Of a stretch of DNA of 64,000 nucleotides, positions 1,733 to 64,000 are shown piece by piece. The translations under genes and the position numbers were made by a program. Position 1 is the first letter of the stretch. Each line of letters opens with the position of its first letter. The stretch is from the NCBI RefSeq assembly GCF_044647545.1, contig NZ_CP172818.1, one strand, 5' to 3'. Under the pieces are notes generated by a model. That model was not told the DNA's origin, did not search any database, and saw only the letters and a list, made by a program, of their open reading frames with translations. The stretch comes from Escherichia coli. GTDB lineage: Bacteria; Pseudomonadota; Gammaproteobacteria; Enterobacterales; Enterobacteriaceae.

Positions 1733-1798
1733 TGCCAGACGCGTCTTCAGAATAAGTCGGATAAGGCATTTACGCCGCATCCGAGCTTTATTCCAGTT

Positions 1799-6293: not shown

Positions 6294-8555
6294 ATGACAA
6301 TTCTTAATCACACCCTCGGTTTCCCTCGCGTTGGCCTGCGTCGCGAGCTGAAAAAAGCGCAAGAGAGTTATTGGGCGGGGAACTCCACGCGTGAAGAACT
6401 GCTGGCGGTAGGGCGTGAACTGCGTGCTCGTCACTGGGATCAACAAAAGCAAGCAGGTATCGACCTGCTGCCGGTGGGTGATTTTGCCTGGTACGATCAT
6501 GTCCTGACCACCAGCCTGCTGCTGGGTAACGTTCCGGCGCGTCACCAGAACAAAGATGGTTCGGTAGATATCGACACCCTGTTCCGTATTGGTCGTGGAC
6601 GTGCGCCGACTGGCGAACCTGCGGCGGCGGCGGAAATGACCAAATGGTTTAACACCAACTATCACTACATGGTGCCGGAGTTCGTTAAAGGCCAACAGTT
6701 CAAACTGACCTGGACGCAGCTGCTGGAGGAAGTGGACGAGGCGCTGGCGCTGGGCCACAAGGTGAAACCTGTGCTGCTGGGGCCGGTTACCTGGCTGTGG
6801 CTGGGTAAAGTGAAAGGTGAACAGTTTGATCGCCTGAGCCTGCTGAACGACATTCTGCCGGTTTATCAGCAAGTGCTGGCAGAACTGGCAAAACGCGGCA
6901 TCGAGTGGGTACAGATCGACGAACCCGCGCTGGTACTGGAACTACCGCAGGCGTGGCTGGACGCCTATAAACCCGCTTACGACGCGCTCCAGGGGCAGGT
7001 GAAACTGCTGCTGACTACTTATTTTGAAGGCGTAACACCAAATCTCGACACGATTACTGCGCTGCCTGTTCAGGGGCTGCATGTGGACCTTGTACATGGT
7101 AAAGATGACGTTGCTGAACTGCACAAGCGCCTGCCTTCTGACTGGCTACTGTCTGTGGGTCTGATCAATGGTCGTAACGTCTGGCGCGCCGATCTTACCG
7201 AGAAATATGCGCAAATTAAGGACATTGTCGGCAAACGTGATTTGTGGGTGGCATCTTCCTGCTCACTGCTGCACAGCCCCATCGACCTGAGCGTGGAAAC
7301 GCGTCTTGATGCAGAAGTGAAAAGCTGGTTTGCCTTCGCCCTACAAAAATGCCATGAACTGGCACTGCTGCGCGATGCGCTGAACAGTGGTGATACGGCG
7401 GCTCTGGCAGAGTGGAGCGCTCCGATTCAGGCGCGTCGTCACTCTACTCGTGTACATAATCCGGCAGTAGAAAAGCGTCTGGCGGCGATCACCGCTCAGG
7501 ACAGTCAGCGTGCGAATGTCTATGAAGTGCGTGCTGAAGCCCAGCGTGCGCGTTTTAAACTGCCCGCGTGGCCGACCACCACGATTGGTTCCTTCCCGCA
7601 AACTACGGAGATTCGTACCCTGCGTCTGGATTTTAAAAAGGGTAATCTCGACGCCAATAACTACCGCACGGGCATTGCGGAACATATCAAGCAGGCCATT
7701 GTTGAGCAGGAACGTTTGGGACTGGATGTGCTGGTACATGGCGAGGCCGAGCGTAATGACATGGTGGAATACTTTGGCGAGCATCTGGATGGCTTTGTCT
7801 TTACGCAAAACGGTTGGGTACAGAGCTACGGTTCCCGCTGCGTGAAGCCACCGATTGTTATTGGTGACGTTAGCCGCCCGGCACCGATTACTGTGGAGTG
7901 GGCAAAATATGCGCAATCCCTGACTGATAAACCGGTGAAAGGGATGTTGACCGGCCCGGTGACTATTCTCTGCTGGTCGTTCCCGCGTGAAGATGTCAGC
8001 CGTGAAACCATCGCCAAACAAATTGCGCTGGCGCTGCGTGATGAAGTGGCCGATCTGGAAGCCGCTGGAATTGGCATCATCCAGATTGACGAACCGGCTC
8101 TGCGCGAAGGTTTACCGCTGCGTCGCAGCGACTGGGATGTGTATCTCCAGTGGGGCGTAGAGGCCTTCCGTATCAACGCCGCCGTGGCGAAAGATGACAC
8201 ACAAATCCACACTCACATGTGTTATTGCGAGTTCAACGACATCATGGATTCCATTGCGGCGCTGGACGCAGACGTCATCACCATCGAAACCTCGCGTTCC
8301 GACATGGAGTTGCTGGAGTCGTTTGAAGAGTTTGATTATCCAAATGAAATCGGTCCTGGCGTCTATGACATTCACTCGCCAAACGTACCGAGCGTGGAAT
8401 GGATTGAAGCCTTGCTGAAGAAAGCGGCAAAACGCATTCCGGCAGAGCGTCTGTGGGTCAACCCGGACTGTGGCCTGAAAACGCGCGGCTGGCCAGAAAC
8501 CCGCGCGGCACTGGCGAACATGGTGCAGGCGGCGCAGAATTTGCGTCGGGGGTAA
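6294..8555 (+). CDS. metE: cobalamin-independent methionine synthase, 753 aa
   Basis: 753-aa ORF beginning [14 protein letters not shown]; canonical MetE. Confidence 0.96.
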
Positions 8556-8595
8556 ATCCCAAACTGGGTGGCAAACACCACCCGGTCTTTTCTCA

Positions 8596-9411
8596 TTACA
8601 GCGACTTCTTCCCACCATACTGTGTAAACCATTCCAACATTCGCTGCCAGCCGTCTTTCGCAGACTCGGCATGATAGCTCGGACGATAATCGGCGTTGAA
8701 CGCATGCCCGGCATCCGGGTAGACGATAATCTCTGCTTTCGCGTTTGCTGCCCGCAGCGCCTGGCGCATCGTTTCAACGCTCTCCTGCGGAATGCTGTTA
8801 TCCTGGCCGCCATATAAGCCGATAACCGGCGCGTTAAGATCGGTTGCGATATCAACAGGCTGTTTCGGTGAATTCAGCGTCTTATCGCCGGTTAATTTGC
8901 CGTACCATGCCACCGCTGCTTTCAGTTGTGGATTATGCGCAGCATACAGCCAGGTGATGCGCCCACCCCAGCAAAATCCGGTGATCATTAAGCGATGAAC
9001 ATCGCCGCCGTTGCGTGACGCCCAACTGGCGACATGATCGAGATCGGCCAGCACCTGCGAGTCAGGCACTTTTGCTACCAGACCGCTAAGCAGCGTAGGG
9101 ATATCGGCAAAATCATTCGGATCGCCTTCGCGGAAGTAAAGTTCAGGTGCGATAGCCAGATACCCCTCCAGCGCCAGACGGCGACAAATATCGCGGATAT
9201 GTTCATGCACGCCAAAAATTTCCTGCACTACAATGACCACTGGCAGTGGGCCATCGCTTTGCTTTGGTCTGGCATGGTAAGCAGGCATGTTATCCCCTTG
9301 TGAAGGGATAGAGGTGAAGCCCGCCACAATCGCGTCGTCCGGAGTCTGAACGATGGTCGAAGCGAGAGGCGATGCAGCAGGTGCAAATCCAGATTGTTGT
9401 GTTGTTGCCAT
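8596..9411 (-). CDS. ysgA: dienelactone hydrolase family protein, about 271 aa (start chosen at internal Met; track ORF extends to 9477)
   Basis: Alpha/beta hydrolase-like ORF convergent with metE; start position uncertain. Confidence 0.8.
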
Positions 9412-9672: not shown

Positions 9673-10515
9673 ATGTCCAAGTCTGATGTTTTTCATCTCG
9701 GCCTCACTAAAAACGATTTACAAGGGGCTACGCTTGCCATCGTCCCTGGCGACCCGGATCGTGTGGAAAAGATCGCCGCGCTGATGGATAAGCCGGTTAA
9801 GCTGGCATCTCATCGCGAATTCACCACCTGGCGTGCAGAGCTGGATGGTAAACCTGTTATCGTCTGCTCTACCGGTATCGGCGGCCCGTCTACCTCTATT
9901 GCTGTTGAAGAGCTGGCACAGCTGGGCATTCGCACCTTCCTGCGTATCGGTACAACGGGCGCTATTCAGCCGCATATTAATGTGGGTGATGTCCTGGTTA
10001 CCACGGCGTCTGTTCGTCTGGACGGCGCGAGCCTGCACTTCGCACCGCTGGAATTCCCGGCTGTCGCTGATTTCGAATGTACGACTGCGCTGGTTGAAGC
10101 GGCGAAGTCAATTGGTGCCACCACTCACGTTGGTGTGACGGCTTCTTCTGATACCTTCTACCCGGGTCAGGAACGTTACGATACTTACTCTGGTCGCGTA
10201 GTTCGTCACTTTAAAGGTTCTATGGAAGAGTGGCAGGCGATGGGCGTAATGAACTATGAAATGGAATCTGCAACCCTGCTGACCATGTGTGCAAGTCAGG
10301 GCCTGCGTGCCGGTATGGTAGCGGGGGTTATCGTTAACCGCACCCAGCAAGAGATCCCGAATGCTGAGACGATGAAACAAACCGAAAGCCATGCGGTGAA
10401 AATCGTGGTGGAAGCGGCGCGTCGTCTGCTGAAATTCTCTTTCTCCTGTCAGCCCTGGGTGAAGGCATCCCATCTTCATCTCCAGGATGCATTCACCGAA
10501 ATCGAATCGGGATAA
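9673..10515 (+). CDS. udp: uridine phosphorylase with a 27-codon C-terminal read-through; the expected stop position 10432-10434 reads AAA
   Basis: Translation matches Udp through ..VEAARRLL, then continues [27 protein letters not shown] to TAA at 10513-10515. Confidence 0.88.
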
Positions 10516-11690
10516 AACATCAAATAACTCCCCTCATAAATCTGGAAATCTAATTTTTTTTCAACTACTGCCCATTTCGCATTTGCCGGTAACCTATCAC
10601 ATGCATACCCTGATGGATCGCGTTTTCAGGCCGGTTCCATCGACACACCTGAATTTTTTCTCTTCGCCACGCATCACTTCGGCATTTCACCTTCTTTAAT
10701 CACCCAGCATGATTCAGCATTTCTCTCTGTGATAACACGTCAACTGCTTCGCCAGACCCTCGAATGACCGCAAGGTAAATAACTGCTGTTGCCACCCTTC
10801 GCACTCCGACATCCGCAAGCCATACCGCATGGGTTTTCGACCATCCCGCAGACACGTAAAACGTATCTGGAAACTCCTCACGTTTCTCCTGGAGGTAATT
10901 TCATGATCCCCAGAATTCACGTTTTTCTTTGATCTTGATTCGCCAAAACGCCATGCCCGAACGATGACTTCCCCATCCAGGATTAAATCTAAGTTCTGCA
11001 TTATCTTTCCTTTAATCATTTTATTTATCTTTCGGACGTCTTACCCCACCCATTCACGGATATCTCTTCTGCACAGGATTTGACGAAGTGCCACTTCAAC
11101 CCCACGACATATACTGTACTCGACAGAAATACCGCCACAATTTCATCCCGCTTGTAAACCCTCAACGCAACGGATATCGGCTCTTTCCTTCCAATCAAAA
11201 CAAAACCACTCCAAACGACGCATGTTCTAATAAAGCGCCCATTTTGTTTCATCACCACAGGCTTTACCGCCACTTTCTTCTTTCGTTAGATCAATCCTCC
11301 GATCCGTGATTCCATCATCGATCCTCTGACGCATTTCCACCCCCTGACTTTGATCTTCTCCAGATACAGCACTTCTCGCCTTCAACGATCCCCAGATGCA
11401 CGGTTCCAGTTAACCAACGTTCAAAACCGCAATTTTACACGAGTCTTTCCATCTCTCACTGAATCGATCATTTCACCCATTTACCCTCGTGACACGCAGT
11501 AACTTTTCCACAAACTGACTAAACATGTTTCTCCTCGTCCTGAACTCCCGATAATTTTAGTCACACGTTATAAACACATTAAGAACCGCCATCCACGTAA
11601 TAACGTTTCCGCCTCGTGTTGAAGAGGTTTCTCCCACTCACTTCTCTATGATATTCTGAATTTCCACATAATGACGTGGGGAAAAAGTGA
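10516..11690 (+). other. ORF-poor, G-depleted tract (top strand roughly 12-13% G, about 30% C) between udp and rmuC; origin and function unknown
   Basis: Hand counts on two 100-120 nt samples; only short ORFs (70-101 aa) on either strand, none resembling a known protein. Confidence 0.6.
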
Positions 11691-11696
11691 TATATC

Positions 11697-11725
11697 CCAC
11701 AATATAAACCCATCTCATATTGTGG
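11697..11725. promoter_or_regulatory. inverted repeat ccacaatat-N11-atattgtgg about 120 bp upstream of rmuC; candidate operator
   Basis: Perfect 9-bp arms read directly from the sequence. Confidence 0.35.
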
Positions 11726-11842
11726 ATAAATAATGAAAATTAACATTTTTGCGTAGCGCCTCGCAGGAAACTTCTTTCAAACTGGACGTTTGTACAGCAC
11801 AATTCTATTTTGTGCGGGTAAGTTGTTGCGTCAGGAGGCGTT

Positions 11843-21738: not shown

Positions 21739-21743
21739 GATAT

Positions 21744-21817: not shown

Positions 21818-23098
<1,281 letters not shown>

Positions 23099-25288: not shown

Positions 25289-25313
25289 GTCAGTCTCCTG
25301 AATCCGCAAGGTG

Positions 25314-25330
25314 ATCTGGTCGTACCAGAT
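25314..25330. promoter_or_regulatory. FadR operator of the fadBA promoter (atctggtcgtaccagat)
   Basis: 17-bp near-palindrome about 30 bp upstream of fadB start, matching the remembered fadB FadR box. Confidence 0.7.
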
Positions 25331-25477
25331 GAATCGAAGTGTGTATTTTGTGTTAAAAATATGCAAACAAAAGATTAAAGAAATGCCGATCTGATCACGC
25401 TCGGCAGAAATCACGCTCTGGATGAACGATGTGCTAAGATGCGGAGACTTAAGGTCAAAAAAACAGAAGGGTAAAAA

Positions 25478-26809
25478 ATGGAATCACTGGCCTCACTCTA
25501 TAAAAATCATATAGCTACCTTACAAGAACGGACTCGCGATGCGCTGGCGCGCTTCAAGCTGGATGCGTTACTTATTCACTCCGGCGAACTGTTCAACGTT
25601 TTTCTCGACGATCATCCCTATCCGTTTAAAGTGAACCCGCAATTCAAAGCGTGGGTGCCGGTAACTCAGGTGCCAAACTGCTGGTTGCTGGTGGATGGCG
25701 TGAACAAGCCGAAACTGTGGTTTTATCTGCCGGTTGATTACTGGCACAACGTCGAACCGCTGCCGAACTCCTTCTGGACTGAAGATGTGGAAGTGATCGC
25801 GCTGCCGAAAGCCGATGGCATTGGTAGCCTGCTGCCTGCTGCGCGCGGCAATATCGGTTATATCGGTCCGGTGCCGGAACGTGCGCTGCAACTGGGTATT
25901 GAGGCCAGCAACATCAACCCGAAAGGGGTGATCGACTACCTGCATTACTACCGCTCCTTCAAAACCGAGTACGAACTGGCCTGTATGCGTGAAGCGCAGA
26001 AAATGGCGGTCAACGGTCATCGTGCGGCAGAAGAAGCGTTCCGTTCTGGCATGAGCGAGTTCGATATCAATATTGCCTATCTGACCGCGACCGGTCATCG
26101 TGATACTGACGTACCTTACAGCAACATTGTGGCGCTTAACGAACACGCTGCGGTGTTGCATTACACCAAACTGGACCACCAGGCACCGGAAGAGATGCGC
26201 AGCTTCCTGCTGGATGCCGGGGCCGAATATAACGGCTATGCGGCTGACCTGACCCGTACCTGGTCGGCAAAAAGCGACAACGACTACGCACAGCTGGTGA
26301 AAGACGTAAATGATGAACAACTGGCGCTGATCGCCACCATGAAAGCAGGCGTCAGCTATGTGGATTATCACATCCAGTTCCATCAGCGCATCGCCAAACT
26401 GCTGCGTAAACATCAAATCATCACCGATATGAGTGAAGAAGCGATGGTCGAAAACGATCTCACCGGACCTTTTATGCCGCACGGTATCGGTCATCCGCTG
26501 GGCCTGCAGGTGCATGACGTAGCTGGCTTTATGCAAGATGATAGCGGTACGCACCTCGCGGCACCGGCAAAATATCCGTACCTGCGCTGCACCCGTATTC
26601 TCCAGCCGGGCATGGTGTTAACCATCGAACCGGGTATCTACTTCATCGAATCGCTGCTGGCACCGTGGCGTGAAGGGCAGTTCAGCAAGCACTTCAACTG
26701 GCAGAAAATTGAAGCACTGAAACCGTTCGGCGGCATTCGTATCGAAGACAATGTGGTGATCCACGAAAACAGCGTGGAAAACATGACCCGGGATCTGAAA
26801 CTGGCGTGA
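25478..26809 (+). CDS. pepQ: Xaa-Pro dipeptidase (prolidase), 443 aa
   Basis: 443-aa M24-family metallopeptidase ORF. Confidence 0.95.
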
Positions 26810-27423
26810 TGGAAAGCTGGTTAATTCCTGCGGCACCGGTCACGGTCGTTGAAGAGATCAAAAAAAGCCGCTTCATAACGATGTTGGCGCATACCGATGG
26901 CGTTGAGGCGGCGAAAGCGTTTGTTGAATCGGTACGGGCAGAACACCCCGATGCCCGCCACCATTGCGTAGCGTGGGTGGCGGGTGCGCCGGATGATTCT
27001 CAACAGCTCGGTTTCTCTGACGACGGGGAACCGGCGGGAACGGCCGGTAAACCGATGCTCGCCCAACTAATGGGCAGCGGCGTCGGGGAAATTACCGCTG
27101 TGGTGGTGCGCTACTACGGCGGCATATTGCTTGGTACCGGTGGGTTAGTGAAAGCGTATGGCGGCGGCGTGAATCAGGCGCTGCGCCAGCTAACGACCCA
27201 ACGCAAGACGCCATTAACCGAATATACTTTGCAATGTGAATATAGTCAGTTAACCGGCATTGAAGCGTTGCTGGGGCAGTGTGACGGCAAAATTATCAAC
27301 AGTGATTATCAGGCATTCGTTCTGCTGCGGGTGGCGCTTCCGGCGGCGAAAGTGGCTGAATTTTCCGCAAAGCTGGCGGATTTTAGCCGTGGTTCATTGC
27401 AATTGTTAGCGATTGAAGAATAA
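26809..27423 (+). CDS. yigZ: IMPACT-family protein YigZ, about 204 aa
   Basis: ORF overlapping pepQ stop; conserved position before trkH. Confidence 0.88.
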   Translation: MESWLIPAAPVTVVEEIKKSRFITMLAHTDGVEAAKAFVESVRAEHPDARHHCVAWVAGAPDDSQQLGFSDDGEPAGTAGKPMLAQLMGSGVGEITAVVVRYYGGILLGTGGLVKAYGGGVNQALRQLTTQRKTPLTEYTLQCEYSQLTGIEALLGQCDGKIINSDYQAFVLLRVALPAAKVAEFSAKLADFSRGSLQLLAIEE

Positions 27424-27461
27424 TCCCCACTTCGTTTTGCAGAACTAAGGAAGCGGCAGAG

Positions 27462-28913
27462 ATGCATTTTCGCGCCATTACCCGAATCGTTGGACTACTG
27501 GTCATCTTATTTTCAGGGACCATGATTATCCCTGGGCTGGTAGCACTCATCTACCGGGATGGAGCGGGCCGCGCTTTTACCCAGACCTTTTTTGTCGCCC
27601 TCGCCATTGGCTCTATGCTGTGGTGGCCGAACCGCAAAGAGAAGGGCGAACTGAAATCCCGTGAGGGGTTTCTGATAGTGGTGCTGTTCTGGACCGTGCT
27701 GGGTAGCGTCGGTGCGCTCCCTTTTATCTTCTCGGAAAGCCCGAACCTCACGATTACCGATGCGTTTTTTGAATCTTTCTCTGGCCTGACCACCACGGGA
27801 GCCACTACGCTGGTGGGGCTGGATTCGCTCCCTCATGCCATCCTCTTTTATCGCCAGATGCTGCAATGGTTTGGCGGGATGGGGATCATCGTGCTGGCGG
27901 TTGCGATACTGCCTATCCTCGGCGTGGGTGGGATGCAGCTCTATCGCGCAGAAATGCCCGGCCCGCTGAAAGATAACAAAATGCGCCCGCGAATTGCGGA
28001 AACGGCGAAAACCCTGTGGTTGATTTATGTCTTGCTGACCGTCGCCTGTGCGCTGGCGTTGTGGTTTGCCGGAATGGATGCCTTTGATGCCATCGGCCAT
28101 AGCTTTGCGACTATCGCTATTGGCGGCTTCTCGACACATGATGCCAGTATCGGTTATTTCGACAGCCCGACTATTAACACTATCATTGCTATCTTCCTGC
28201 TGATCTCCGGCTGTAACTACGGTCTGCACTTTTCACTGTTAAGTGGGCGTAGTCTGAAGGTTTATTGGCGCGATCCGGAATTTCGCATGTTTATCGGCGT
28301 ACAGTTTACGCTGGTGATTATTTGTACCCTCGTGCTGTGGTTTCATAATGTCTATAGTTCGGCGCTGATGACAATTAACCAGGCGTTTTTCCAGGTGGTG
28401 TCGATGGCGACAACCGCCGGGTTTACGACTGACAGCATTGCCCGCTGGCCGCTCTTTTTGCCGGTACTGCTCTTATGTTCAGCTTTTATCGGCGGTTGTG
28501 CCGGGTCAACGGGCGGTGGCCTGAAAGTGATCCGCATCCTGCTGCTGTTTAAGCAGGGGAACCGTGAGCTGAAACGACTGGTGCATCCGAACGCCGTCTA
28601 CAGCATTAAGCTGGGGAATCGCGCACTGCCGGAACGTATCCTCGAAGCCGTTTGGGGATTTTTCTCCGCCTATGCATTGGTGTTTATTGTCAGTATGCTG
28701 GCGATTATCGCCACGGGCGTGGATGACTTTTCTGCCTTTGCCTCGGTTGTTGCGACATTGAATAACCTGGGGCCAGGGCTTGGTGTGGTTGCTGATAACT
28801 TTACCAGTATGAACCCGGTGGCTAAATGGATCCTGATTGCCAACATGCTGTTTGGTCGTCTTGAGGTCTTTACATTGCTGGTGCTCTTTACCCCGACTTT
28901 CTGGCGTGAATGA
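27462..28913 (+). CDS. trkH: potassium uptake protein TrkH, 483 aa
   Basis: 483-aa polytopic membrane ORF. Confidence 0.95.
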   Translation: MHFRAITRIVGLLVILFSGTMIIPGLVALIYRDGAGRAFTQTFFVALAIGSMLWWPNRKEKGELKSREGFLIVVLFWTVLGSVGALPFIFSESPNLTITDAFFESFSGLTTTGATTLVGLDSLPHAILFYRQMLQWFGGMGIIVLAVAILPILGVGGMQLYRAEMPGPLKDNKMRPRIAETAKTLWLIYVLLTVACALALWFAGMDAFDAIGHSFATIAIGGFSTHDASIGYFDSPTINTIIAIFLLISGCNYGLHFSLLSGRSLKVYWRDPEFRMFIGVQFTLVIICTLVLWFHNVYSSALMTINQAFFQVVSMATTAGFTTDSIARWPLFLPVLLLCSAFIGGCAGSTGGGLKVIRILLLFKQGNRELKRLVHPNAVYSIKLGNRALPERILEAVWGFFSAYALVFIVSMLAIIATGVDDFSAFASVVATLNNLGPGLGVVADNFTSMNPVAKWILIANMLFGRLEVFTLLVLFTPTFWRE

Positions 28914-28924
28914 TGGAGTAATAC

Positions 28925-29470
28925 GTGAAAACATTAATTCTTTTCTCAACAAGGGACGGACAAACGCGCGAGATTGCCTCCTACCTGGCTTCGGAACTGA
29001 AAGAACTGGGTATCCAGGCGGATGTTGCTAATGTACACCGCATTGAAGAACCACAGTGGGAAAACTACGACCGTGTGGTCATTGGAGCTTCTATTCGCTA
29101 CGGTCATTACCATTCAGCGTTCCAGGCATTTGTCAAAAAGCATGCCACCCAGCTGAACTCAATGCCGAGCGCCTTTTACTCTGTCAACCTGGTGGCACGC
29201 AAGCCGGAGAAGCGGACTGTGCAGACCAACAGCTACGCCCGAAAGTTTCTGATGAACTCACAATGGCGCCCCGATCGCTGTGCCGTCATTGCCGGGGCGC
29301 TGCGTTATCCACGCTATCGTTGGTACGACCGTTTTATGATCAAGCTGATTATGAAGATGTCAGGCGGTGAAACGGATACGCGCAAAGAAGTTGTCTATAC
29401 CGATTGGGAGCAGGTGGCGAATTTCGCCCGAGAAATCGCCCATTTAACCGACAAACCGACGCTGAAATAA
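28925..29470 (+). CDS. hemG: protoporphyrinogen IX dehydrogenase (menaquinone-dependent, flavodoxin-like), 181 aa
   Basis: GTG start; 181-aa ORF immediately upstream of rrnA promoters. Confidence 0.93.
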
Positions 29471-29496
29471 GCATAAAGAATAAAAAATGCGCGGTC

Positions 29497-29547
29497 AGAA
29501 AATTATTTTAAATTTCCTCTTGTCAGGCCGGAATAACTCCCTATAAT
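29497..29547 (+). promoter_or_regulatory. rrnA P1 promoter: A/T-rich UP element, -35 ttgtca (29520-29525), -10 tataat (29542-29547)
   Basis: agaaaattattttaaatttcctcttgtcaggccggaataactccctataatgcg is a canonical rrn P1 sequence. Confidence 0.85.
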
Positions 29548-29638
29548 GCGCCACCACTGACACGGAACAACGGCAAACACGCCGCCGGGTCAGCGGGGTT
29601 CTCCTGAGAATTCCGGCAGAGAAAGCAAAAATAAATGC

Positions 29639-29847: not shown

Positions 29848-31389
<1,542 letters not shown>

Positions 31390-31652: not shown

Positions 31653-31835
31653 TCTCTGTAGTGATTAAATAAAAAATACTTCAGAGTGTACCTGCAAAGG
31701 TTCACTGCGAAGTTTTGCTCTTTAAAAATCTGGATCAAGCTGAAAATTGAAACACTGAACAACGAAAGTTGTTCGTGAGTCTCTCAAATTTTCGCAACAC
31801 GATGATGAGTCGAAAGAAACATCTTCGGGTTGTGA

Positions 31836-34739
<2,904 letters not shown>

Positions 34740-34831
34740 ACAACGCCGAAGGTGTTTTGGCGGATTGAGAGAAGATTTTCAGCCTGATACAGATTAAATC
34801 AGAACGCAGAAGCGGTCTGATAAACAGAATT

Positions 34832-34939
34832 TGCCTGGCGGCCTTAGCGCGGTGGTCCCACCTGACCCCATGCCGAACTCAGAAGTGAAACGCCGTAGCG
34901 CCGATGGTAGTGTGGGGTCTCCCCATGCGAGAGTAGGGA
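34832..34939 (+). rRNA. rrfA: 5S ribosomal RNA, first 108 of 120 nt only; 3' terminal 12 nt (actgccaggcat) replaced by unrelated sequence
   Basis: tgcctggcggcc..ccccatgcgagagtaggga matches 5S, then continues ccacctttttgcg instead of actgccaggcat. Confidence 0.85.
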
Positions 34940-34968
34940 CCACCTTTTTGCGTTGGTGCGGAATAAAT

Positions 34969-35005
34969 GCCGGATGCGACGCTGGCGCGTTTGCTCCAGC
35001 CTACT
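34969..35005. repeat. degenerate REP-like element (gccggatgcgacgctggcgcgtttgctccagcctac)
   Basis: Matches REP consensus except for three positions in the second arm. Confidence 0.5.
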
Positions 35006-35010
35006 CTTGC

Positions 35011-35538
35011 TTATCCGTCCTGCTTTTGCATCCACTCCACCACAAAATCAGCCAGCCCCTCAACATCATTAATATCCAGTAACGCGACATCAAGATTAAG
35101 CGGCACATCACTGGCTACAACAATAACATGTCTGTCTATCACTAATTCTTCTGGTCGATGTCCGGTTCCATCGCGAAACAGCACAATCTTTGCGATCTCT
35201 TCATGCTTAAACCCTTCGACCAGAATCAAATCCAGCTTTGAAGCATCCATCCGGCTTGCGAGAAAATGCAGATCCAGTTCTTCTTCGTCTGGCGTTTCTG
35301 TCATCAAAGCCCATCGTTGCTGGCTGGCAACGATGGTTTGCGCCGCGCCAGCCTTGCGCAGCTCATAGCTATCTTTGCCCGGTTTATCAACATCCATATC
35401 ATGGTGCGTATGCTTAATCAGCCCCGGACGGATCCCTCTGGCGCATAATGCCGGGATCAGTTTTTTCAGCAGCGTCGTTTTTCCGGTGCCACTCCACGCG
35501 GCAAAGGCGAGTAACGGTATCATTGTCTTTCCTGCCAT
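35011..35538 (-). CDS. mobB: molybdopterin-guanine dinucleotide biosynthesis adapter protein MobB, 175 aa
   Basis: P-loop [10 protein letters not shown]; overlaps mobA stop. Confidence 0.92.
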
Positions 35539-36104
35539 CGGGCAAGCTCCTCTGGCGTATTCACGTTAACAAATGCATCTTTATGATCGCTGAAATCAAC
35601 CGCATGACCGCCAGCCTGACGCATAAATGCCATTACCCGGCGTTCTCCTGCTTGCAAATATTCTTGTAATAAAGGCTCAATAGCGCGGTTTACCAGAGCA
35701 ATAGTCGGGTGATCGCGTTCACCGTCGTGGACCCACACGACAGGCGCATCTTTGCGCTGATGATTAAGCCGGGCGGCTAAATCCTGGGGAATATAAGGCG
35801 TATCGCACGGACAAAACAAAAACCACTCACCCGCTTCCTGCTGCATTACTGAAAGCATTCCTGCCAGAGGGCCTGGGTAATCCGCCAGTGAATCTTCAAT
35901 CACTTTCAGACCGCTTGCCTGATAGATTTCCTGATGACGATTAGCATTAACCACGACGTGAGAGAGCTGCGTCATAAGCGCGTCAGCGACATGTTGCCAT
36001 AATGGTTTGCCGTTTAATTCAAGCAATCCTTTATCTACGCCGCCCATTCGTCTGGCTTTACCGCCTGCCAGCACAACGCCTGTTATCGTCGTCATCAGAT
36101 TCAC
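35520..36104 (-). CDS. mobA: molybdenum cofactor guanylyltransferase MobA, 194 aa
   Basis: [30 protein letters not shown].. canonical MobA. Confidence 0.95.
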
Positions 36105-36173
36105 CGATATCGCCTCTTTTATTGTGGGATTGACCCTGCTAACGTGTCTGTCTCAAGAGTAAGGAGCATTACT

Positions 36174-36443
36174 ATGAAATGTAAACGTCTGAATGAAGTT
36201 ATTGAACTCCTCCAGCCAGCCTGGCAAAAAGAGCCAGACCTTAACCTGCTGCAATTTTTGCAGAAACTGGCGAAAGAGTCAGGTTTTGACGGCGAACTGG
36301 CGGATTTGACGGATGACATTCTGATCTATCACCTGAAAATGCGTGATTCCGCGAAAGATGCGGTGATTCCGGGTTTGCAGAAAGATTATGAAGAAGATTT
36401 CAAAACGGCGCTATTACGCGCACGTGGCGTAATTAAAGAGTAA
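36174..36443 (+). CDS. yihD: DUF1040 family protein YihD, 89 aa
   Basis: [42 protein letters not shown].. Confidence 0.88.
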
Positions 36444-36519
36444 AAGCTTGTAAGCGGTGCCACCAAAATCATCATGAAATGATATCCTTCATCATTCGTA
36501 ATGTTTTCCGGATGATGGG

Positions 36520-37506
36520 ATGAACAACAGCGCTTTTACTTTCCAGACACTACACCCGGATACCATCATGGATGCTCTGTTTGAGCAAGGGATCCGGGTG
36601 GATTCCGGTCTTACCCCGCTTAACAGCTATGAAAACCGTGTCTATCAATTTCAGGACGAAGATCGTCGACGTTTTGTCGTCAAATTTTATCGTCCTGAAC
36701 GTTGGACAGCCGATCAAATCCTCGAAGAACATCAATTTGCGTTGCAGTTGGTAAATGATGAAGTTCCGGTCGCAGCACCTGTGGCCTTTAACGGTCAGAC
36801 TTTATTGAATCATCAGGGATTTTATTTCGCTGTTTTTCCAGGCGTCGGTGGTCGCCAGTTCGAAGCTGATAATATCGATCAGATGGAAGCGGTTGGGCGT
36901 TATTTAGGGCGTATGCACCAGACGGGGCGCAAACAGCTTTTTATCCATCGCCCGACCATCGGTCTGAATGAATATCTCATTGAGCCTCGCAAGCTGTTTG
37001 AGGACGCTACACTGATACCTTCCGGGTTGAAAGCGGCATTTCTGAAAGCGACAGATGAGCTGATCGCCGCCGTTACAGCACACTGGCGGGAAGATTTCAC
37101 CGTTCTGCGGCTACATGGAGACTGCCACGCTGGGAATATTCTCTGGCGCGATGGTCCAATGTTTGTTGATCTGGATGATGCACGTAATGGTCCGGCTATT
37201 CAGGATTTGTGGATGTTGCTCAATGGCGATAAAGCCGAGCAGCGGATGCAACTGGAAACTATTATTGAAGCTTATGAAGAATTTAGCGAGTTCGACACTG
37301 CTGAAATCGGACTGATTGAACCTTTACGCGCCATGCGTTTGGTTTATTATCTTGCCTGGCTAATGCGGCGTTGGGCTGATCCCGCGTTCCCGAAAAATTT
37401 CCCGTGGTTAACCGGGGAAGATTACTGGCTACGACAGACGGCGACTTTTATAGAACAGGCAAAAGTTCTACAAGAACCCCCTTTGCAATTAACACCTATG
37501 TATTAA
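36520..37506 (+). CDS. srkA: stress response Ser/Thr protein kinase SrkA (RdoA), 328 aa
   Basis: 328-aa ORF with aminoglycoside-phosphotransferase-like kinase motifs (HGDCHAGN, DLDD). Confidence 0.92.
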   Translation: MNNSAFTFQTLHPDTIMDALFEQGIRVDSGLTPLNSYENRVYQFQDEDRRRFVVKFYRPERWTADQILEEHQFALQLVNDEVPVAAPVAFNGQTLLNHQGFYFAVFPGVGGRQFEADNIDQMEAVGRYLGRMHQTGRKQLFIHRPTIGLNEYLIEPRKLFEDATLIPSGLKAAFLKATDELIAAVTAHWREDFTVLRLHGDCHAGNILWRDGPMFVDLDDARNGPAIQDLWMLLNGDKAEQRMQLETIIEAYEEFSEFDTAEIGLIEPLRAMRLVYYLAWLMRRWADPAFPKNFPWLTGEDYWLRQTATFIEQAKVLQEPPLQLTPMY

Positions 37507-37522
37507 TCGGAGAGAGTAGATC

Positions 37523-38149
37523 ATGAAAAAGATTTGGCTGGCGCTGGCTGGTTTAGTTTTAGCGTTTAGCGCATCGGCGGCGCAGTATGAAGATGGTAAA
37601 CAGTACACTACCCTGGAAAAACCAGTTGCTGGCGCGCCGCAAGTGCTGGAGTTTTTCTCTTTCTTCTGCCCGCACTGCTATCAGTTTGAAGAAGTTCTGC
37701 ATATTTCTGATAACGTGAAGAAAAAACTGCCGGAAGGCGTGAAGATGACTAAATACCACGTCAACTTCATGGGTGGTGACCTGGGCAAAGATCTGACTCA
37801 GGCATGGGCAGTGGCGATGGCACTGGGCGTGGAAGACAAAGTCACTGTTCCGCTGTTTGAAGGCGTACAGAAAACCCAGACCATTCGTTCAGCATCTGAT
37901 ATCCGCGATGTATTTATCAACGCAGGTATTAAAGGTGAAGAGTACGACGCGGCGTGGAACAGCTTCGTGGTGAAATCCCTGGTCGCTCAGCAGGAAAAAG
38001 CTGCAGCTGACGTGCAATTGCGTGGCGTTCCGGCGATGTTTGTTAACGGTAAATATCAGCTGAATCCGCAGGGTATGGATACCAGCAATATGGATGTTTT
38101 TGTTCAGCAGTATGCTGATACTGTGAAATATCTGTCCGAGAAAAAATAA
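37523..38149 (+). CDS. dsbA: periplasmic thiol:disulfide oxidoreductase DsbA, 208 aa
   Basis: Signal peptide plus CPHC active site ([14 protein letters not shown]). Confidence 0.97.
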
Positions 38150-38166
38150 TTCAATGTAAATTACAT

Positions 38167-38197
38167 AAAGCCCGTGAATATTCACGGGCTTTTTTTA
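38167..38197 (+). terminator. intrinsic terminator downstream of dsbA
   Basis: aaagcccgtgaatattcacgggcttttttt hairpin plus T-run. Confidence 0.8.
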
Positions 38198-38303
38198 TTA
38201 TTTAATAAATATAAATACATTCTGATAATGCATCCCGCCGCTGGACATTATTTCAGCATAAGTGGATATTCAAAGCTTTGCTGTTTTATCAGGGAATATT
38301 TAT

Positions 38304-39734
38304 ATGATACGTAAGTCAGCTACAGGTGTTATTGTTGCGTTAGCCGTAATCTGGGGTGGTGGCACATGGTACACAGGTACGCAAATTCAGCCTGGTGTCG
38401 AAAAGTTTATTAAAGATTTTAACGATGCTAAAAAGAAAGGTGAACATGCCTACGATATGACGTTAAGTTATAAAAACTTTGACAAAGGCTTTTTTAATTC
38501 TCATTTTCAAATGCAAATAACATTTGATAACGGTGCACCCGATCTCAATATCAAGCCAGGCCAGAAAGTTGCATTTGATGTGGATGTTGAGCACGGTCCG
38601 TTGCCCATCACAATGTTAATGCGTGGTAATGTCATCCCCGCACTGGCAGCGGCAAAAGTGAACTTAGTGAATAATGAACTGACACAACCGCTATTTATCG
38701 CCGCAAAAAATAAATCGCCCGTGGAAGCGACATTGCGATTCGCGTTTGGTGGCTCATTCTCCACGACATTAGATGTTGCCCCTGCAAAATATGGAAAGTT
38801 TTCTTTTGGTGAGGGCCAGTTTACTTTTAATGGTGATGGTAGTTCATTGTCTAACCTGGATAGTGAAGGCAAAGTCGAAGATATTGTTCTGCAATTTTCA
38901 CCAATGAACAAAGTAACGGCGAAAAGTTTTACCTTTGATTCTCTGACACGATTAGAAGAAAAGAAATTTCCGGTTGGTGAAAGCGAGTCGAAATTTAATC
39001 AGGTTAATATTATCAACCAGGGGGAAGTCGTTGCCCAAATCGATGCTTTCGTTGCAAAAACCAGGCTGGATCGCGTTAAAGACAAAGATTATATCAATGT
39101 CAATCTGACCTACGAACTTGATAAGTTAATAAAAGGGAATCAGCAACTCGGTAGTGGTGAGTGGTCATTGATTGCTGAATCTATTGATCCATCAGCGGTG
39201 CGCCAATTTATCATCCAGTATAACATTGCGATGCAGAAGCAGCTTGCTGCACACCCTGAGTTAGCAAACGATGAAGTTGCTCTGCAAGAAGTGAATGCTG
39301 CATTGTTCAAAGAGTATTTACCGTTATTACAAAAAAGTGAGCCGACCATTAAACAACCGGTAAGATGGAAGAACGCACTCGGCGAACTAAATGCCAATCT
39401 GGATATCAGTATTGCCGACCCAGCCAAATCTTCATCATCCACAAACAAAGATATCAAATCGCTCAATTTTGATGTGAAGTTACCGCTTAATGTCGTCACA
39501 GAAACCGCAAAACAGCTTAATTTATCTGAAGGAATGGATGCGGAAAAAGCGCAAAAGCAGGCTGATAAACAAATCAGCGGGATGATGACATTAGGTCAGA
39601 TGTTTCAGTTAATCACGATTGACAACAATACCGCCTCGCTGCAGCTGCGTTATACACCGGGTAAAGTTGTTTTTAACGGACAGGAGATGAGCGAAGAAGA
39701 ATTTATGTCTCGTGCCGGACGTTTTGTTCATTAA
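38304..39734 (+). CDS. yihF: DUF945/GTP-binding family protein YihF, about 476 aa (track ORF starts at 38262)
   Basis: Start chosen at MIRKSATGVIVALAV (signal/TM-like N-terminus). Confidence 0.85.
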   Translation: MIRKSATGVIVALAVIWGGGTWYTGTQIQPGVEKFIKDFNDAKKKGEHAYDMTLSYKNFDKGFFNSHFQMQITFDNGAPDLNIKPGQKVAFDVDVEHGPLPITMLMRGNVIPALAAAKVNLVNNELTQPLFIAAKNKSPVEATLRFAFGGSFSTTLDVAPAKYGKFSFGEGQFTFNGDGSSLSNLDSEGKVEDIVLQFSPMNKVTAKSFTFDSLTRLEEKKFPVGESESKFNQVNIINQGEVVAQIDAFVAKTRLDRVKDKDYINVNLTYELDKLIKGNQQLGSGEWSLIAESIDPSAVRQFIIQYNIAMQKQLAAHPELANDEVALQEVNAALFKEYLPLLQKSEPTIKQPVRWKNALGELNANLDISIADPAKSSSSTNKDIKSLNFDVKLPLNVVTETAKQLNLSEGMDAEKAQKQADKQISGMMTLGQMFQLITIDNNTASLQLRYTPGKVVFNGQEMSEEEFMSRAGRFVH

Positions 39735-39774
39735 AATACTCACTCGCCTCTGCTCATTCAGAGGCGAGTAAAAC

Positions 39775-40707
39775 TTACTTTTCCTGCCGCTGTGATGACA
39801 TGAGAGACGTCAGAAGCCGGTCTTTTTCCTGCCACAATGAGTTCAGCCATTGCTGAAAATGGCGCTTAAAGCTTTTGTCATTGATGTAGTCGCCATGTAA
39901 CTCATCGGCAATAGGCTGTAAATCCACATGTACGACAATTCGCGTCAGTTTACCGCTTAACATATCGAAGAACGGCTGACGGTTATTGTCCGGATAACAC
40001 AGCGTAACATTAAGCAGTTTATCGAATTGTTTACCCAGTACATTTAGCGCCATCGCAATGCCTGCCGCCTTTGGTGGCAACAAGTTTTGAAAAGTGGAGT
40101 GGGTTTGCTGATGTTTTTCTTGCGTGAAACGGGAGCCTTCAACGAAATTGACAATGGTGGTGGGATGCAGGCGAAACTTTTCACAAGAACGCCGAGTGGT
40201 TTCAACATCTTTACCACGTCGCTCCGGATGACGTAATAAATAAGCGCGGGAATAACGCTTCATAAACGGCATATCCAGCGCCCAGCACGCCAGGCCAAGA
40301 AATGGCACCCAGGCCAGCTGTTGCTTGAGGAAATATTTATTCATCGGAATGTGCTTACGAAACAGCACGCACAGTACGACAATATCTGCCCAACTACGGT
40401 GGTTACAAATAAGCAGATACCAGTTCTTCTTACTTAACCCTTCCAGCCCGTGAACTTCCCATTGCAGGTGTGGGTTCAGATGCAGTAATACCGCCAGACC
40501 TTCACACCAGCAATACATCATAAAATCACAAAAACGCGAAACCTTTCGCCAAATGACTGGCACAGGTAGCAATAGTTTTACAATCCCGGCAATGATGATC
40601 GGGACGGAGCAAAAAATAGTGACCAAAATGGTCAATACGATACTCAGCAAAAGGGTTATCGCAGCGAGTATTCTCGTCATAATGAATTTATTCAAAAGGT
40701 TAGCCAT
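39775..40707 (-). CDS. yihG: putative lysophospholipid acyltransferase YihG, about 310 aa
   Basis: PlsC-like acyltransferase ORF; start at internal Met MANLLNKF of the 318-aa track ORF. Confidence 0.85.
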
Positions 40708-41070
40708 AGACAGTGCGCTAAAGGAGCGCAAGGCGCAGATTTTAGCAGAAAACGCCCCAAATAACGGATGATCCTTAAGGAGAAAAATAATTCATATCTA
40801 TCCACATTAGAAAAAATCCCATTATCTCAATTATTAGGGATGGCTTTATTTTTAACTACATGAAAAACAAAGACAAACATCATGCTGTAAAAAGCATGAT
40901 AATAAATTAAAAGTGATGTAAATAATTTATGCACAAAGTTATCCACATGACGATTTGCGAGCGATCCAGAAGATCTACAAAAGATTTTCACGAAAAGCGG
41001 TGAAAAACTCATGTTTTCATCCTGTCTGTGGCATCCTTTACCCATAATCTGATAAACAGGCACGGACATT

Positions 41071-43857
41071 ATGGTTCAGATCCCCCAAAATCCACTTATC
41101 CTTGTAGATGGTTCATCTTATCTTTATCGCGCATATCACGCGTTTCCCCCGCTGACTAACAGCGCAGGCGAGCCGACTGGTGCGATGTATGGTGTCCTCA
41201 ACATGCTGCGCAGTCTGATCATGCAATATAAACCGACGCATGCAGCGGTGGTCTTTGACGCCAAGGGAAAAACCTTTCGTGATGAACTGTTTGAACATTA
41301 CAAATCACATCGCCCGCCAATGCCGGACGATCTGCGAGCACAAATCGAACCTCTGCACGCGATGGTTAAAGCGATGGGACTGCCGCTGCTGGCGGTTTCT
41401 GGCGTAGAAGCGGACGACGTTATTGGTACTCTGGCGCGCGAAGCCGAAAAAGCCGGGCGTCCGGTGCTGATCAGCACTGGCGATAAAGATATGGCGCAGC
41501 TGGTGACACCAAATATCACGCTTATCAACACCATGACGAATACCATCCTCGGACCGGAAGAGGTGGTGAATAAGTACGGCGTGCCGCCAGAACTGATCAT
41601 CGATTTCCTGGCGCTGATGGGTGACTCCTCTGATAACATTCCTGGCGTACCGGGCGTCGGTGAAAAAACCGCGCAGGCATTGCTGCAAGGTCTTGGCGGA
41701 CTGGATACGCTGTATGCCGAGCCAGAAAAAATTGCTGGGTTGAGCTTCCGTGGCGCGAAAACAATGGCAGCGAAGCTCGAGCAAAACAAAGAAGTTGCTT
41801 ATCTCTCATACCAGCTGGCGACGATTAAAACCGACGTTGAACTGGAGCTGACCTGTGAACAACTGGAAGTGCAGCCACCGGCGGCGGAAGAGTTGTTAGG
41901 GCTGTTCAAAAAGTATGAGTTCAAACGCTGGACTGCTGATGTCGAAGCGGGCAAATGGCTACAGGCCAAAGGGGCGAAACCCGCAGCCAAGCCGCAGGAA
42001 ACCAGTGTTGCAGACGAAGCGCCAGAAGTGACGGCAACGGTGATTTCTTATGACAACTACGTCACCATCCTTGATGAAGAAACACTGAAAGAGTGGATTG
42101 CGAAGCTGGAAAAAGCGCCGGTATTTGCATTTGATACCGAAACCGACAGCCTTGATAACATCTCTGCTAACCTGGTCGGGCTTTCTTTTGCTATCGAGCC
42201 AGGCGTAGCGGCATATATTCCGGTTGCTCATGATTATCTTGATGCGCCCGATCAAATCTCTCGCGAGCGTGCACTCGAGTTGCTAAAACCGCTGCTGGAA
42301 GATGAAAAGGCGCTGAAGGTCGGGCAAAACCTGAAATACGATCGCGGTATTCTGGCGAACTACGGCATTGAACTACGTGGGATTGCGTTTGATACCATGC
42401 TGGAGTCCTACATTCTCAATAGCGTTGCCGGGCGTCACGATATGGACAGCCTCGCGGAACGTTGGTTGAAGCACAAAACCATCACTTTTGAAGAGATTGC
42501 GGGTAAAGGCAAAAATCAACTGACCTTTAACCAGATTGCCCTCGAAGAAGCCGGACGTTACGCCGCCGAAGATGCAGATGTCACCTTGCAGTTGCATCTG
42601 AAAATGTGGCCGGATCTGCAAAAACACAAAGGGCCGTTGAACGTCTTCGAGAATATCGAAATGCCGCTGGTGCCGGTGCTTTCACGCATTGAACGTAACG
42701 GTGTGAAGATCGATCCGAAAGTACTGCACAATCACTCTGAAGAGCTCACCTTGCGTCTGGCTGAGCTGGAAAAGAAAGCGCATGAAATTGCAGGTGAAGA
42801 ATTTAACCTTTCTTCCACCAAGCAGTTACAAACCATTCTGTTTGAAAAACAGGGCATTAAACCGCTGAAGAAAACGCCGGGTGGCGCGCCGTCAACGTCG
42901 GAAGAGGTACTGGAAGAACTGGCGCTGGACTATCCGTTGCCAAAAGTGATTCTGGAGTATCGTGGTCTGGCGAAGCTGAAATCGACCTACACCGACAAGC
43001 TGCCGCTGATGATCAACCCGAAAACCGGGCGTGTACATACCTCTTATCACCAGGCAGTAACCGCAACGGGACGTTTATCGTCAACCGATCCTAACCTGCA
43101 AAACATTCCGGTGCGTAATGAAGAAGGTCGTCGTATCCGCCAGGCGTTTATTGCGCCAGAGGATTATGTGATTGTCTCGGCGGACTACTCGCAGATTGAA
43201 CTGCGCATTATGGCGCATCTCTCGCGTGACAAAGGCTTGCTGACCGCATTCGCGGAAGGAAAAGATATCCACCGGGCTACGGCGGCAGAAGTGTTTGGTT
43301 TGCCACTGGAAACCGTAACCAGCGAGCAACGCCGTAGCGCGAAAGCGATCAACTTTGGTCTGATTTATGGCATGAGTGCTTTCGGCCTGGCGCGGCAATT
43401 GAACATTCCACGTAAAGAAGCGCAGAAGTACATGGACCTTTACTTCGAACGCTACCCTGGCGTGCTGGAGTATATGGAACGCACCCGTGCTCAGGCGAAA
43501 GAGCAGGGCTACGTTGAAACGCTGGACGGACGCCGTCTGTATCTGCCGGATATCAAATCCAGCAATGGTGCTCGTCGTGCAGCGGCTGAACGTGCAGCCA
43601 TTAACGCGCCAATGCAGGGAACCGCCGCCGACATTATCAAACGGGCGATGATTGCCGTTGATGCGTGGCTACAGGCTGAGCAACCGCGTGTACGTATGAT
43701 CATGCAGGTACACGATGAACTGGTATTTGAAGTTCATAAAGATGATGTCGATGCCGTCGCGAAGCAGATTCATCAACTGATGGAAAACTGTACCCGTCTG
43801 GATGTGCCGTTGCTGGTGGAAGTGGGGAGTGGCGAAAACTGGGATCAGGCGCACTAA
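41071..43857 (+). CDS. polA: DNA polymerase I, 928 aa
   Basis: [25 protein letters not shown].. 5'-3' exonuclease, 3'-5' exonuclease and polymerase domains. Confidence 0.98.
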
Positions 43858-50558: not shown

Positions 50559-50583
50559 GAAGTTTCCCGAACAACTTCAACTA

Positions 50584-63236: not shown

Positions 63237-63589
63237 AAATAATCTCCATAGAGTATAAAGCTAATATTTCATGCCATCCTGTTGTTACAGGTTTCATTAA
63301 TTAAAGATTGTGTGCTATAAATAAAACCCCATAAGTGATATATAAAAACTTTTTCAGCCCGGCGGATTGCCGCCATTTTTAACCAAAAATGCCAGTTACA
63401 ATAATAACTAACAATAAACGGAGCAGAATCCAGCCGGGAATTCCCATCCCTTTTATCAACATAGAACCGGAGGCAATCAGCAACAAAAAGACCATCACAC
63501 GGAACACTTTGACTGAAAGCGTTTATGCACATATCTCCAACAAGCGAACCGAGAATCAGGAAAACAAAAAACACCAGTTAAAAAAAGAA

Positions 63590-63950
63590 ACATCAAAATC
63601 CCCCCCCCCCGCCCCCCCCGCCCCCCTTTTTGGGGAAAAAAAGGGTCCGAGGCCCCGAATCCCCCGGGCCCAATTCCAGCATACCTACACCCCCGCCCCG
63701 CCCCCCGCCCCGCTCGCCGCTACTCGCCGATACGCCGCGACCATAACGTCAAAACGACAGACAAGAAATAAACATAAAAAAAAAAAAAAAGAAAAGGATC
63801 CCCCTACCCATTAAAAACGTACATACAAACACACAAACAAACAACAAAAAAAAAAATAACGCCCCCCCAACACAAAAAAAAAAACCCCAACAAAAAGAAA
63901 AAAAAAAAAAAAAAAAAAAAAAACACCCCCCAAAAAAAAAAAAAACATAA
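63590..63950. repeat. low-complexity, homopolymer-rich (poly-C, poly-A) sequence; probable assembly or read-end artefact
   Basis: Runs such as c11, a25, ccccgcccc repeats and acaaacaaaca, atypical of E. coli. Confidence 0.8.
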
Positions 63951-64000
63951 TATTTCCTGTTGTGTAAATACAACCCTAAACAATGATCTCGTTCTTTTCT

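What the first reader, a model, noticed from the sequence alone, without database searches (positions are those of the whole stretch)
34920..35010. rrnA 5S rRNA lacks its 3' terminal 12 nt and the downstream terminator hairpin
Positions 34832-34939 match 5S rRNA, but where the last 12 nt (actgccaggcat, the 3' strand of helix I) should be, the sequence reads ccacctttttgcgttgg. The expected downstream hairpin (ggccatcctgacggatggcc-like) is absent; only a ctttttgcgtt remnant and a degenerate REP remain before the convergent mobB stop. This looks like a deletion of about 40-45 bp that would leave a non-functional 5S and no rrnA terminator, allowing read-through antisense to mobB. It may equally be an assembly error, because rrn operons are multi-copy repeats.
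Basis: partly seen in the sequence, partly recalled or inferred. Interest (0 to 1): 0.5.

Follow-up and report, generated by a model that had tools for sequence, protein, structure and literature searches.

The report
Truncated 5S gene: corrupted sequence record
The rrnA 5S rRNA gene in this window does lack its last 12 bases and its terminator hairpin, but the same window has several plainly corrupted stretches, so the loss is almost certainly an error in the sequence record and not biology.

Summary
The 5S match ends at 34939. Where close relatives read ACTGCCAGGCAT plus the terminator hairpin (48 nt), the window reads CCACC, a net loss of 43 nt. Helix I cannot form and no terminator remains before mobB.

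The junction is found nowhere else: not in 5,426 complete E. coli genomes, 100,044 species-representative genomes or 241 million metagenome records. Relatives that are 99.9-100% identical in the flanks all carry the intact 5S gene and hairpin.

The window itself is not a faithful genome sequence:
- 10433-11744 is a copy of a relatives' island with about 270 G's deleted.
- 63308-63957 is a TauE-family gene that decays into poly-A/poly-C and then returns in register.
- 50562-50571 is a second private deletion with a messy junction that removes a hairpin.
- Two junctions where relatives carry insertions have no natural counterpart.

All 50 K-12 core genes are full length and gap-free except yihL, which carries a 1-nt frameshift. 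The damage otherwise sits where this lineage differs from the K-12-type layout.

Verdict: a record-level artefact of unknown origin, about 0.88 likely. A genuine recent deletion that kills one of eight 5S genes is not excluded (about 0.07) and would be only modestly interesting. Other findings from this window should be treated with caution.

The parts
34832..34939 (+). First 108 nt of rrfA (5S rRNA), identical to relatives. Helices II-V are intact.
34940..34944 (+). Filler CCACC standing in for 48 nt of relatives: the last 12 nt of 5S, an 8-nt spacer and the terminator hairpin. Together with the preceding GGGA it is the reverse complement of GGTGGTCCC at 34851-34859 inside 5S.
34945..34968 (+). 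T-run and tail of the rrnA terminator, retained without its hairpin.
34969..35004 (+). Degenerate REP-like element, identical to relatives.
35011..35538 (-). mobB, convergent with rrnA, intact (175 aa).
50562..50571 (.). Second private lesion, in the glnA-glnL spacer (the GlnZ region in K-12). 38 nt including the hairpin CCCGGCG-TTGTT-GCGCCGGG are replaced by 4 nt, and one more base is lost nearby.
10433..11744 (.). Corrupted stretch: the dgoK/IclR island sequence of relatives with 269 G, 69 T, 41 C and 38 A deleted. It is joined directly to the end of udp, skipping about 4 kb, and the udp stop codon is lost.
63308..63957 (.). Corrupted stretch: the TauE-family gene of relatives with G/T drop-outs that decay into poly-A/poly-C. 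The sequence returns in register at the gene start.
1733..1782 (.). rhtC-rhtB junction where relatives carry a 1-kb rpn gene. No natural genome matches the whole 161-nt query spanning this junction (1680-1840) above 93.2%.
8552..8603 (.). Junction after metE where the otherwise identical relatives carry an 8.5-kb island.

Best explanation
The missing 3' end of rrfA and the missing rrnA terminator hairpin are an error of the sequence record, not a property of a living E. coli. The window is a phylogroup-F-like E. coli sequence that is essentially perfect across conserved core genes. It has been damaged, or was never correctly reconstructed, at places where that lineage departs from the common K-12-type layout. 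At those places bases are dropped (mostly G), segments are skipped, and in one case the text decays into homopolymers. The rrfA/terminator junction is one of these places: 48 nt were lost and a 5-nt string that matches no template was left. What is shown: the lesion exists, it is private to this window, relatives are intact, and other corruption is present in the same window. What is inferred: the lesion shares the cause of that other corruption. The cause itself is not identified. Candidates are a consensus or patching failure in an assembly, stripping of ambiguous bases, or a synthetic or model-generated sequence.
For: 1. The junction is private. The query spanning it (34915-34970) has no spanning match in 5,426 complete E. 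coli genomes. The 24-mer GAGTAGGGACCACCTTTTTGCGTT has no exact match in 100,044 species-representative genomes or in 241 million metagenome records.
2. Relatives are intact. GCA_028597905.1 differs by 1 mismatch and 1 gap over 15.6 kb to the right of the junction, and by only a 3-nt indel over 13102-29600 to the left. EC476 is identical from 33563 to 41163 apart from the lesion. Both carry the full 5S gene and hairpin.
3. The junction is not a clean deletion. The filler CCACC has no template at the site.
4. A second private lesion of the same kind removes a hairpin at 50562-50571. Against only 2 SNPs in about 19 kb of unique sequence, two such events are far out of proportion.
5. 10433-11744 is a relatives' island with 417 deletions, 269 of them G, and only about 26 substitutions. 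G content is 14% against 27% in the original. The relatives encode intact IclR and DgoK there.
6. 63308-63957 decays into poly-A/C and returns in register. Three independent assemblies encode an intact TauE-family gene there.
7. Of the 50 K-12 core genes in the window, 49 are full length and gap-free. Damage is therefore confined to non-core or variable sequence, plus one yihL frameshift.
8. The product of the read-through udp ORF is absent from an index of 153 billion gene positions, so the source is not an ordinary public assembly.
9. The udp 3' end is a hybrid of two natural haplotypes joined at a 6-8 nt similarity. The rhtC-rhtB junction has no natural counterpart.
Against: No reads or quality values are available, so the lesion cannot be shown directly to lack read support. 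It is smaller than the two large corrupted zones and is not a simple G drop-out pattern, so it could be an independent, genuine event that happens to lie in a poor record. The break lies 12 nt inside the 5S gene, not exactly at the point where rrn copies or lineages diverge. Losing one of eight 5S genes is viable in E. coli, so biology does not forbid it.
Confidence: 0.88

Rival explanations
1. A genuine, very recent 43-bp deletion in one strain. The rrnA 5S gene loses the 3' strand of helix I and becomes non-functional. rrnA loses its intrinsic terminator, so the very strong rrn transcription runs antisense into mobB-mobA.
For: The sequence as given reads this way. Folding shows helix I lost and a misfold pairing GGUGGUCCC with GGGACCACC. 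No + strand terminator lies before mobB. E. coli tolerates changes in rrn and 5S gene number (PMC4330394, citing Ammons et al. 1999).
Against: The junction is private to this window. It carries filler that matches no template. It sits in a window with two grossly corrupted zones and a twin lesion. Loss of 5S genes carries a marked fitness cost (PMC4330394), and an unterminated rrn operon facing a convergent gene should be selected against.
Confidence: 0.07
2. A genuine template-switch (quasipalindrome) mutation. The nascent strand ending in GGGA pairs with TCCC of GGTGGTCCC inside 5S, copies CCACC, then rejoins downstream at the T-run and deletes the interval.
For: GGGACCACC at the junction is the exact reverse complement of GGTGGTCCC at 34851-34859, and the two pair in the predicted fold.
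Against: The return switch has at most 1-2 nt of homology. A 5-nt match next to an existing 4-nt one is easily chance. All the points against a genuine deletion apply here too. The twin lesion at 50562-50571 shows no such inverted repeat.
Confidence: 0.02
3. A mis-join caused by the multi-copy rrn repeat: a collapsed repeat or a wrong path at the repeat boundary.
For: The lesion lies within about 15 nt of the end of the shared rrn repeat. Another public assembly (CP092703.1) has N's inside the same hairpin, so the spot is hard to call.
Against: The operon is complete and correctly flanked. The break is inside the repeat, not at its end. The other three corrupted places have nothing to do with repeats. 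This is a special case of the artefact reading rather than a true rival.
Confidence: 0.03

Closest known systems
Intact rrfA-terminator-mobB junction of phylogroup-F-like E. coli (FDAARGOS_497 NZ_CP033850.1, EC476 NZ_AP027419.1, GCA_028597905.1)
   Same: The 108 nt of 5S, the T-run, the REP-like element and mobB are identical. The flanks are 99.9-100% identical over many kb.
   Different: Those genomes have the last 12 nt of 5S, the 8-nt spacer and the hairpin GGCCCAGTC-GGAA-GACTGGGC. The window has CCACC instead.
E. coli K-12 rrnA 3' region (T1 hairpin, 5S-remnant, T2 hairpin; NC_000913.3 4040517-4040906)
   Same: Same operon and the same convergent mobB. The tail CCTTTTTGC resembles the K-12 T2 tail.
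   Different: K-12 has 269 nt between 5S and mobB with two terminators. The F-type lineage has a 104-nt hybrid with one terminator. The window has about 61 nt and none.
Engineered 5S rRNA gene or rrn operon deletions in E. coli (Ammons et al. 1999, cited in PMC4330394)
   Same: If real, the lesion would amount to loss of one of eight 5S genes.
   Different: Those are designed, clean deletions in K-12. Here only the 3' strand of helix I is lost, together with the terminator, and the reality of the event is doubtful.
Local consensus or patching errors in genome assemblies, or degenerate output of sequence generators
   Same: Private indels, base-specific drop-outs, homopolymer runs, and perfect sequence on both sides.
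   Different: I know of no standard platform error profile that is nearly pure G deletion and confined to accessory sequence (my own knowledge, not tested). The cause remains unidentified.

Membership tests
Bacterial 5S rRNA (Rfam RF00001) | Score above the Rfam gathering threshold | tested here: met
   77.4 bits against a threshold of 38. An intact relative scores 93.2 bits.
Bacterial 5S rRNA (Rfam RF00001) | Helix I closed by pairing of the 5' and 3' ends | tested here: not met
   5 of 9 model pairs are non-standard in the window, against 1 of 9 in a relative. The minimum-energy fold has no helix I.
Bacterial 5S rRNA (Rfam RF00001) | Helices II-V and loops B-E | tested here: met
   Positions 34832-34939 are identical to relatives.
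Intrinsic (Rho-independent) terminator of an rrn operon | G+C-rich hairpin immediately before a T-run | tested here: not met
   The T-run is present at 34945-34949 but no hairpin precedes it. The scan finds no + strand site between 34700 and 35400. Relatives have a 9-bp stem with a GGAA loop.
Sequence-record artefact | Variant private to the record and absent from near-identical relatives | tested here: met
Sequence-record artefact | Other demonstrable corruption in the same record | tested here: met
   G drop-out zone at 10433-11744, homopolymer decay at 63308-63957, twin lesion at 50562-50571.
Sequence-record artefact | Lack of read support for the variant | not testable with these tools
   No reads, qualities or provenance are available. 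The product of a corrupted ORF is not in the public gene index.
Quasipalindrome template-switch mutation | The new sequence makes an imperfect inverted repeat perfect, and both switch points have homology | tested here: inconclusive
   A 9-nt perfect inverted repeat is created, but the return junction has at most 1-2 nt of homology.

The most novel reading that the evidence does not exclude
The lesion is real. A natural phylogroup-F-like E. coli carries an rrnA operon whose 5S gene has lost the 3' strand of helix I and whose only intrinsic terminator is gone. One of the cell's strongest promoters then reads antisense through mobB-mobA, and one 5S copy is dead.
Probability: 0.07. Interest if true: 0.3.

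Novelty: not a real feature. Interest (0 to 1): 0.07.

Why it matters
As biology it would matter little. One of eight 5S genes would be lost and rrn transcription would probably read through into a non-essential molybdenum-cofactor operon, a strain-level curiosity. The practical point matters more. This 64-kb window is not a trustworthy genome sequence. At least four places are corrupted and several junctions have no natural counterpart. Any other finding drawn from it should be checked against relatives before being believed, especially missing terminators, odd low-complexity tracts, G-poor non-coding stretches, a read-through udp, or a frameshifted yihL.

Tried and rejected
1. I looked for the source genome.
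- Exact look-ups of ten window proteins showed all to be very common alleles, seen on at least 1,000 contigs each, so they did not identify it.
- The read-through Udp product is not on record.
- The RmuC look-up returned only 96-98% relatives.

2. K-12-guided consensus. Gene order is K-12-like, but the glnA-glnL spacer and the SNP pattern are not K-12. This was rejected as the sole cause.

3. General indel noise, as in a long-read-only assembly. Rejected: there are no frameshifts in 49 of 50 core genes, and homopolymers agree with the best relatives.

4. Natural polymorphism of the terminator. A natural GGGCC+T5 allele exists in 21 genomes. It explains only the tail, not the deletion.

5. Gene conversion from another rrn operon or a tRNA 3' end as the source of CCACC. 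I found no supporting match; this was not formally tested.

6. Loci fetched by accession appeared late in the script sandbox. This was worked around by fetching with hit ids.

Full report
**Observation.** The window carries a complete rrnA-type operon: 16S at 29848-31389, tRNA-Ile and tRNA-Ala, 23S at 31836-34739, then 5S. It is followed by convergent mobB-mobA. The 5S sequence starts at 34832 and is identical to E. coli 5S up to ...GAGAGTAGGGA at 34939. It then reads CCACC-TTTTTGCGTTGGTGCGG.

Five relatives read GGGA-ACTGCCAGGCATCAAATTAAGCAGAAGGCCCAGTCGGAAGACTGGGC-TTTTTTGCG. So 48 nt are replaced by 5 nt, a net loss of 43. The lost bases are the last 12 nt of 5S, an 8-nt spacer and the terminator hairpin. 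Against a natural allele whose hairpin ends GGGCC+T5 (21 genomes, for example MS1657), the change is 46 nt replaced by 3.

The hairpin it expected is the K-12 T2 hairpin, not the one this lineage has.

**What the sequence would do as written.** Rfam's 5S model still reports a nominally full-length hit of 77.4 bits. The alignment puts ACCACCUUU opposite the 5' strand of helix I, with 5 of 9 pairs non-standard. An intact relative scores 93.2 bits with one such pair.

RNAfold gives the intact 5S a 10-bp helix I (-50.7 kcal/mol, z -2.05). The window's version has no helix I. Instead GGUGGUCCC pairs with the new GGGACCACC (-43.1 kcal/mol, z -0.68). No terminator-like site lies on the + strand before mobB. 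If real, the gene would be dead and rrnA unterminated.

**Is it found anywhere else?** No.
- The query spanning the junction (34915-34970) finds no spanning match in 5,426 complete E. coli genomes. Only the 28 nt to the right of the junction match, in 21 genomes.
- The 24-mer across the junction has no exact match in 100,044 species-representative genomes.
- It has none in 241 million metagenome records either.

The flanks are not divergent. EC476 is identical to the window from 33563 to 41163 apart from the lesion. GCA_028597905.1 shows 1 mismatch and 1 gap over 15.6 kb on the right, and only a 3-nt indel over 13102-29600 on the left. All these relatives have the intact 5S gene and hairpin.

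**The turning point: the window is corrupted elsewhere.** Comparing the whole window with its nearest relatives turned up several further anomalies.

1. *Second private lesion, 50562-50571.* In the glnA-glnL spacer, 38 nt including the hairpin CCCGGCG-TTGTT-GCGCCGGG are replaced by 4 nt, and a neighbouring base is lost. No complete E. coli genome has this junction.

2. *G drop-out zone, 10433-11744.* This stretch is the dgoK/IclR island of relatives with 417 bases deleted (269 G, 69 T, 41 C, 38 A), only about 26 substitutions and 8 insertions. G content falls from 27% to 14%. The stretch is joined straight to the end of udp, skipping about 4 kb. The join is a hybrid of two natural haplotypes and removes the udp stop codon. 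Relatives encode intact IclR and DgoK there.

3. *Homopolymer decay, 63308-63957.* This stretch starts as the TauE-family gene of relatives with sparse G drop-outs. It worsens, collapses into poly-A/poly-C, and then returns exactly in register at the gene's start codon. Three independent assemblies have the intact gene.

4. *Junctions without natural counterparts.* Where the otherwise 100% identical relatives carry a 1-kb rpn gene and an 8.5-kb island, the window has short junctions. The query spanning the first junction (1680-1840, 161 nt) has no full-length natural match above 93.2%. The yihLMN block has a best natural identity of 99.0%, although its flanks are identical to a genome that carries a different island there.

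By contrast, 49 of the 50 K-12 core genes in the window are full length without gaps. The exception is yihL, which has a 1-nt frameshift. Homopolymer lengths agree with the best relatives. The product of the read-through udp ORF is not in an index of 153 billion gene positions.

**Interpretation.** A living E. coli cannot have lost about 270 G's from a 1.6-kb island while its flanks stay identical to relatives. Nor can a gene turn into poly-A/C and resume in register. These are defects of the record.

The rrfA lesion shares their hallmarks. It is private, its junction matches no template, its flanks are perfect, and it sits where this lineage departs from the common K-12-type layout. It also has a twin at another hairpin. 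Two complex hairpin-removing indels against 2 SNPs in about 19 kb is not a natural spectrum. I therefore rate the artefact reading at about 0.88.

I could not identify the cause. General indel noise is excluded. A simple K-12-guided consensus is excluded by the non-K-12 glnA-glnL spacer and SNP pattern. Mis-joining of the rrn repeat does not explain the other sites. Three possibilities remain open: failed patching or consensus of accessory segments, removal of ambiguous base calls, or a synthetic or model-generated sequence.

**Rivals.**
- *A genuine recent deletion (about 0.07).* It is not excluded because no reads are available and E. coli tolerates loss of rrn and 5S copies, although 5S loss is reported to be costly (PMC4330394, citing Ammons et al. 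1999).
- *A template-switch origin (about 0.02).* It is suggested by the 9-nt inverted repeat GGTGGTCCC/GGGACCACC, but the return junction lacks homology.
- *A repeat-boundary mis-join (about 0.03).* This is a special case of the artefact reading. It is worth noting that another public assembly has N's in this same hairpin.

**Comparison with known things and verdict.** The locus is the ordinary rrfA-terminator-mobB junction of phylogroup-F-like E. coli, minus 43 nt. It fails the defining helix-I feature of 5S and the hairpin feature of an intrinsic terminator. Those failures are best attributed to the record.

Novelty: not a real feature. Interest is low. The useful outcome is a warning that this window, and probably its whole source, needs provenance and read-level checks before any of its oddities are interpreted.

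Noticed in passing
window 10433-11744: A G-poor (14% G) stretch with no long ORF. It is the dgoK/IclR island of relatives with about 417 bases deleted, 269 of them G. It is fused to udp, whose stop codon is lost, giving a 280-aa read-through product.
   Followed up: yes
window 63308-63957: The TauE-family gene of relatives degrades through G/T drop-outs into long poly-A/poly-C runs, then resumes in register at the gene start.
   Followed up: yes
window 50562-50571: A private net loss of about 34 nt in the glnA-glnL spacer removes the hairpin CCCGGCG-TTGTT-GCGCCGGG. In K-12 this spacer encodes the sRNA GlnZ. The downstream hairpin GCCCATCTCTGCATGGGC+T6 (minus strand) is intact.
   Followed up: partly
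window 1733-1782 and 8552-8603: Short junctions stand where relatives, identical in the flanks, carry a 1-kb rpn (Transposase_31) gene and an 8.5-kb island. The query spanning the first junction (1680-1840) has no natural full-length match above 93.2% in 5,426 genomes. The second was not searched.
   Followed up: partly
window 54601: A 1-nt deletion frameshifts yihL. It is the only one of 50 K-12 core genes in the window that is not full length in a single frame.
   Followed up: partly
window 54236-57554: The yihL-yihM-yihN block has a best natural DNA identity of only 99.0%, and its YihM and YihN proteins are identical to K-12. Yet both flanks are 100% identical to GCA_028597905.1, which has a different island at this site. 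The window looks like a mosaic.
   Followed up: partly
L007 (CP092703.1) about 3860-3880: A public complete genome has N's inside the same rrnA terminator hairpin (GACTGGGNCTNNNCTTTTT) and at many CCWGG sites and homopolymers. This hairpin is evidently hard to call in some assemblies.
   Followed up: no
L021 (K-12) 338-606, compared with L001 1671-1774: K-12 rrnA has a T1 hairpin, a 5S-remnant (ATAAACTGCCAGGCATCAAAT) and a T2 hairpin: 269 nt to mobB. The F-type lineage has a 104-nt hybrid with one hairpin. This looks like a natural deletion between the repeated AACTGCCAGGCATCAAAT sequences.
   Followed up: no
window 31720-31828: Rfam StyR-44 hit (123.9 bits) in the spacer just upstream of 23S. 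This is ordinary for enterobacterial rrn operons.
   Followed up: no
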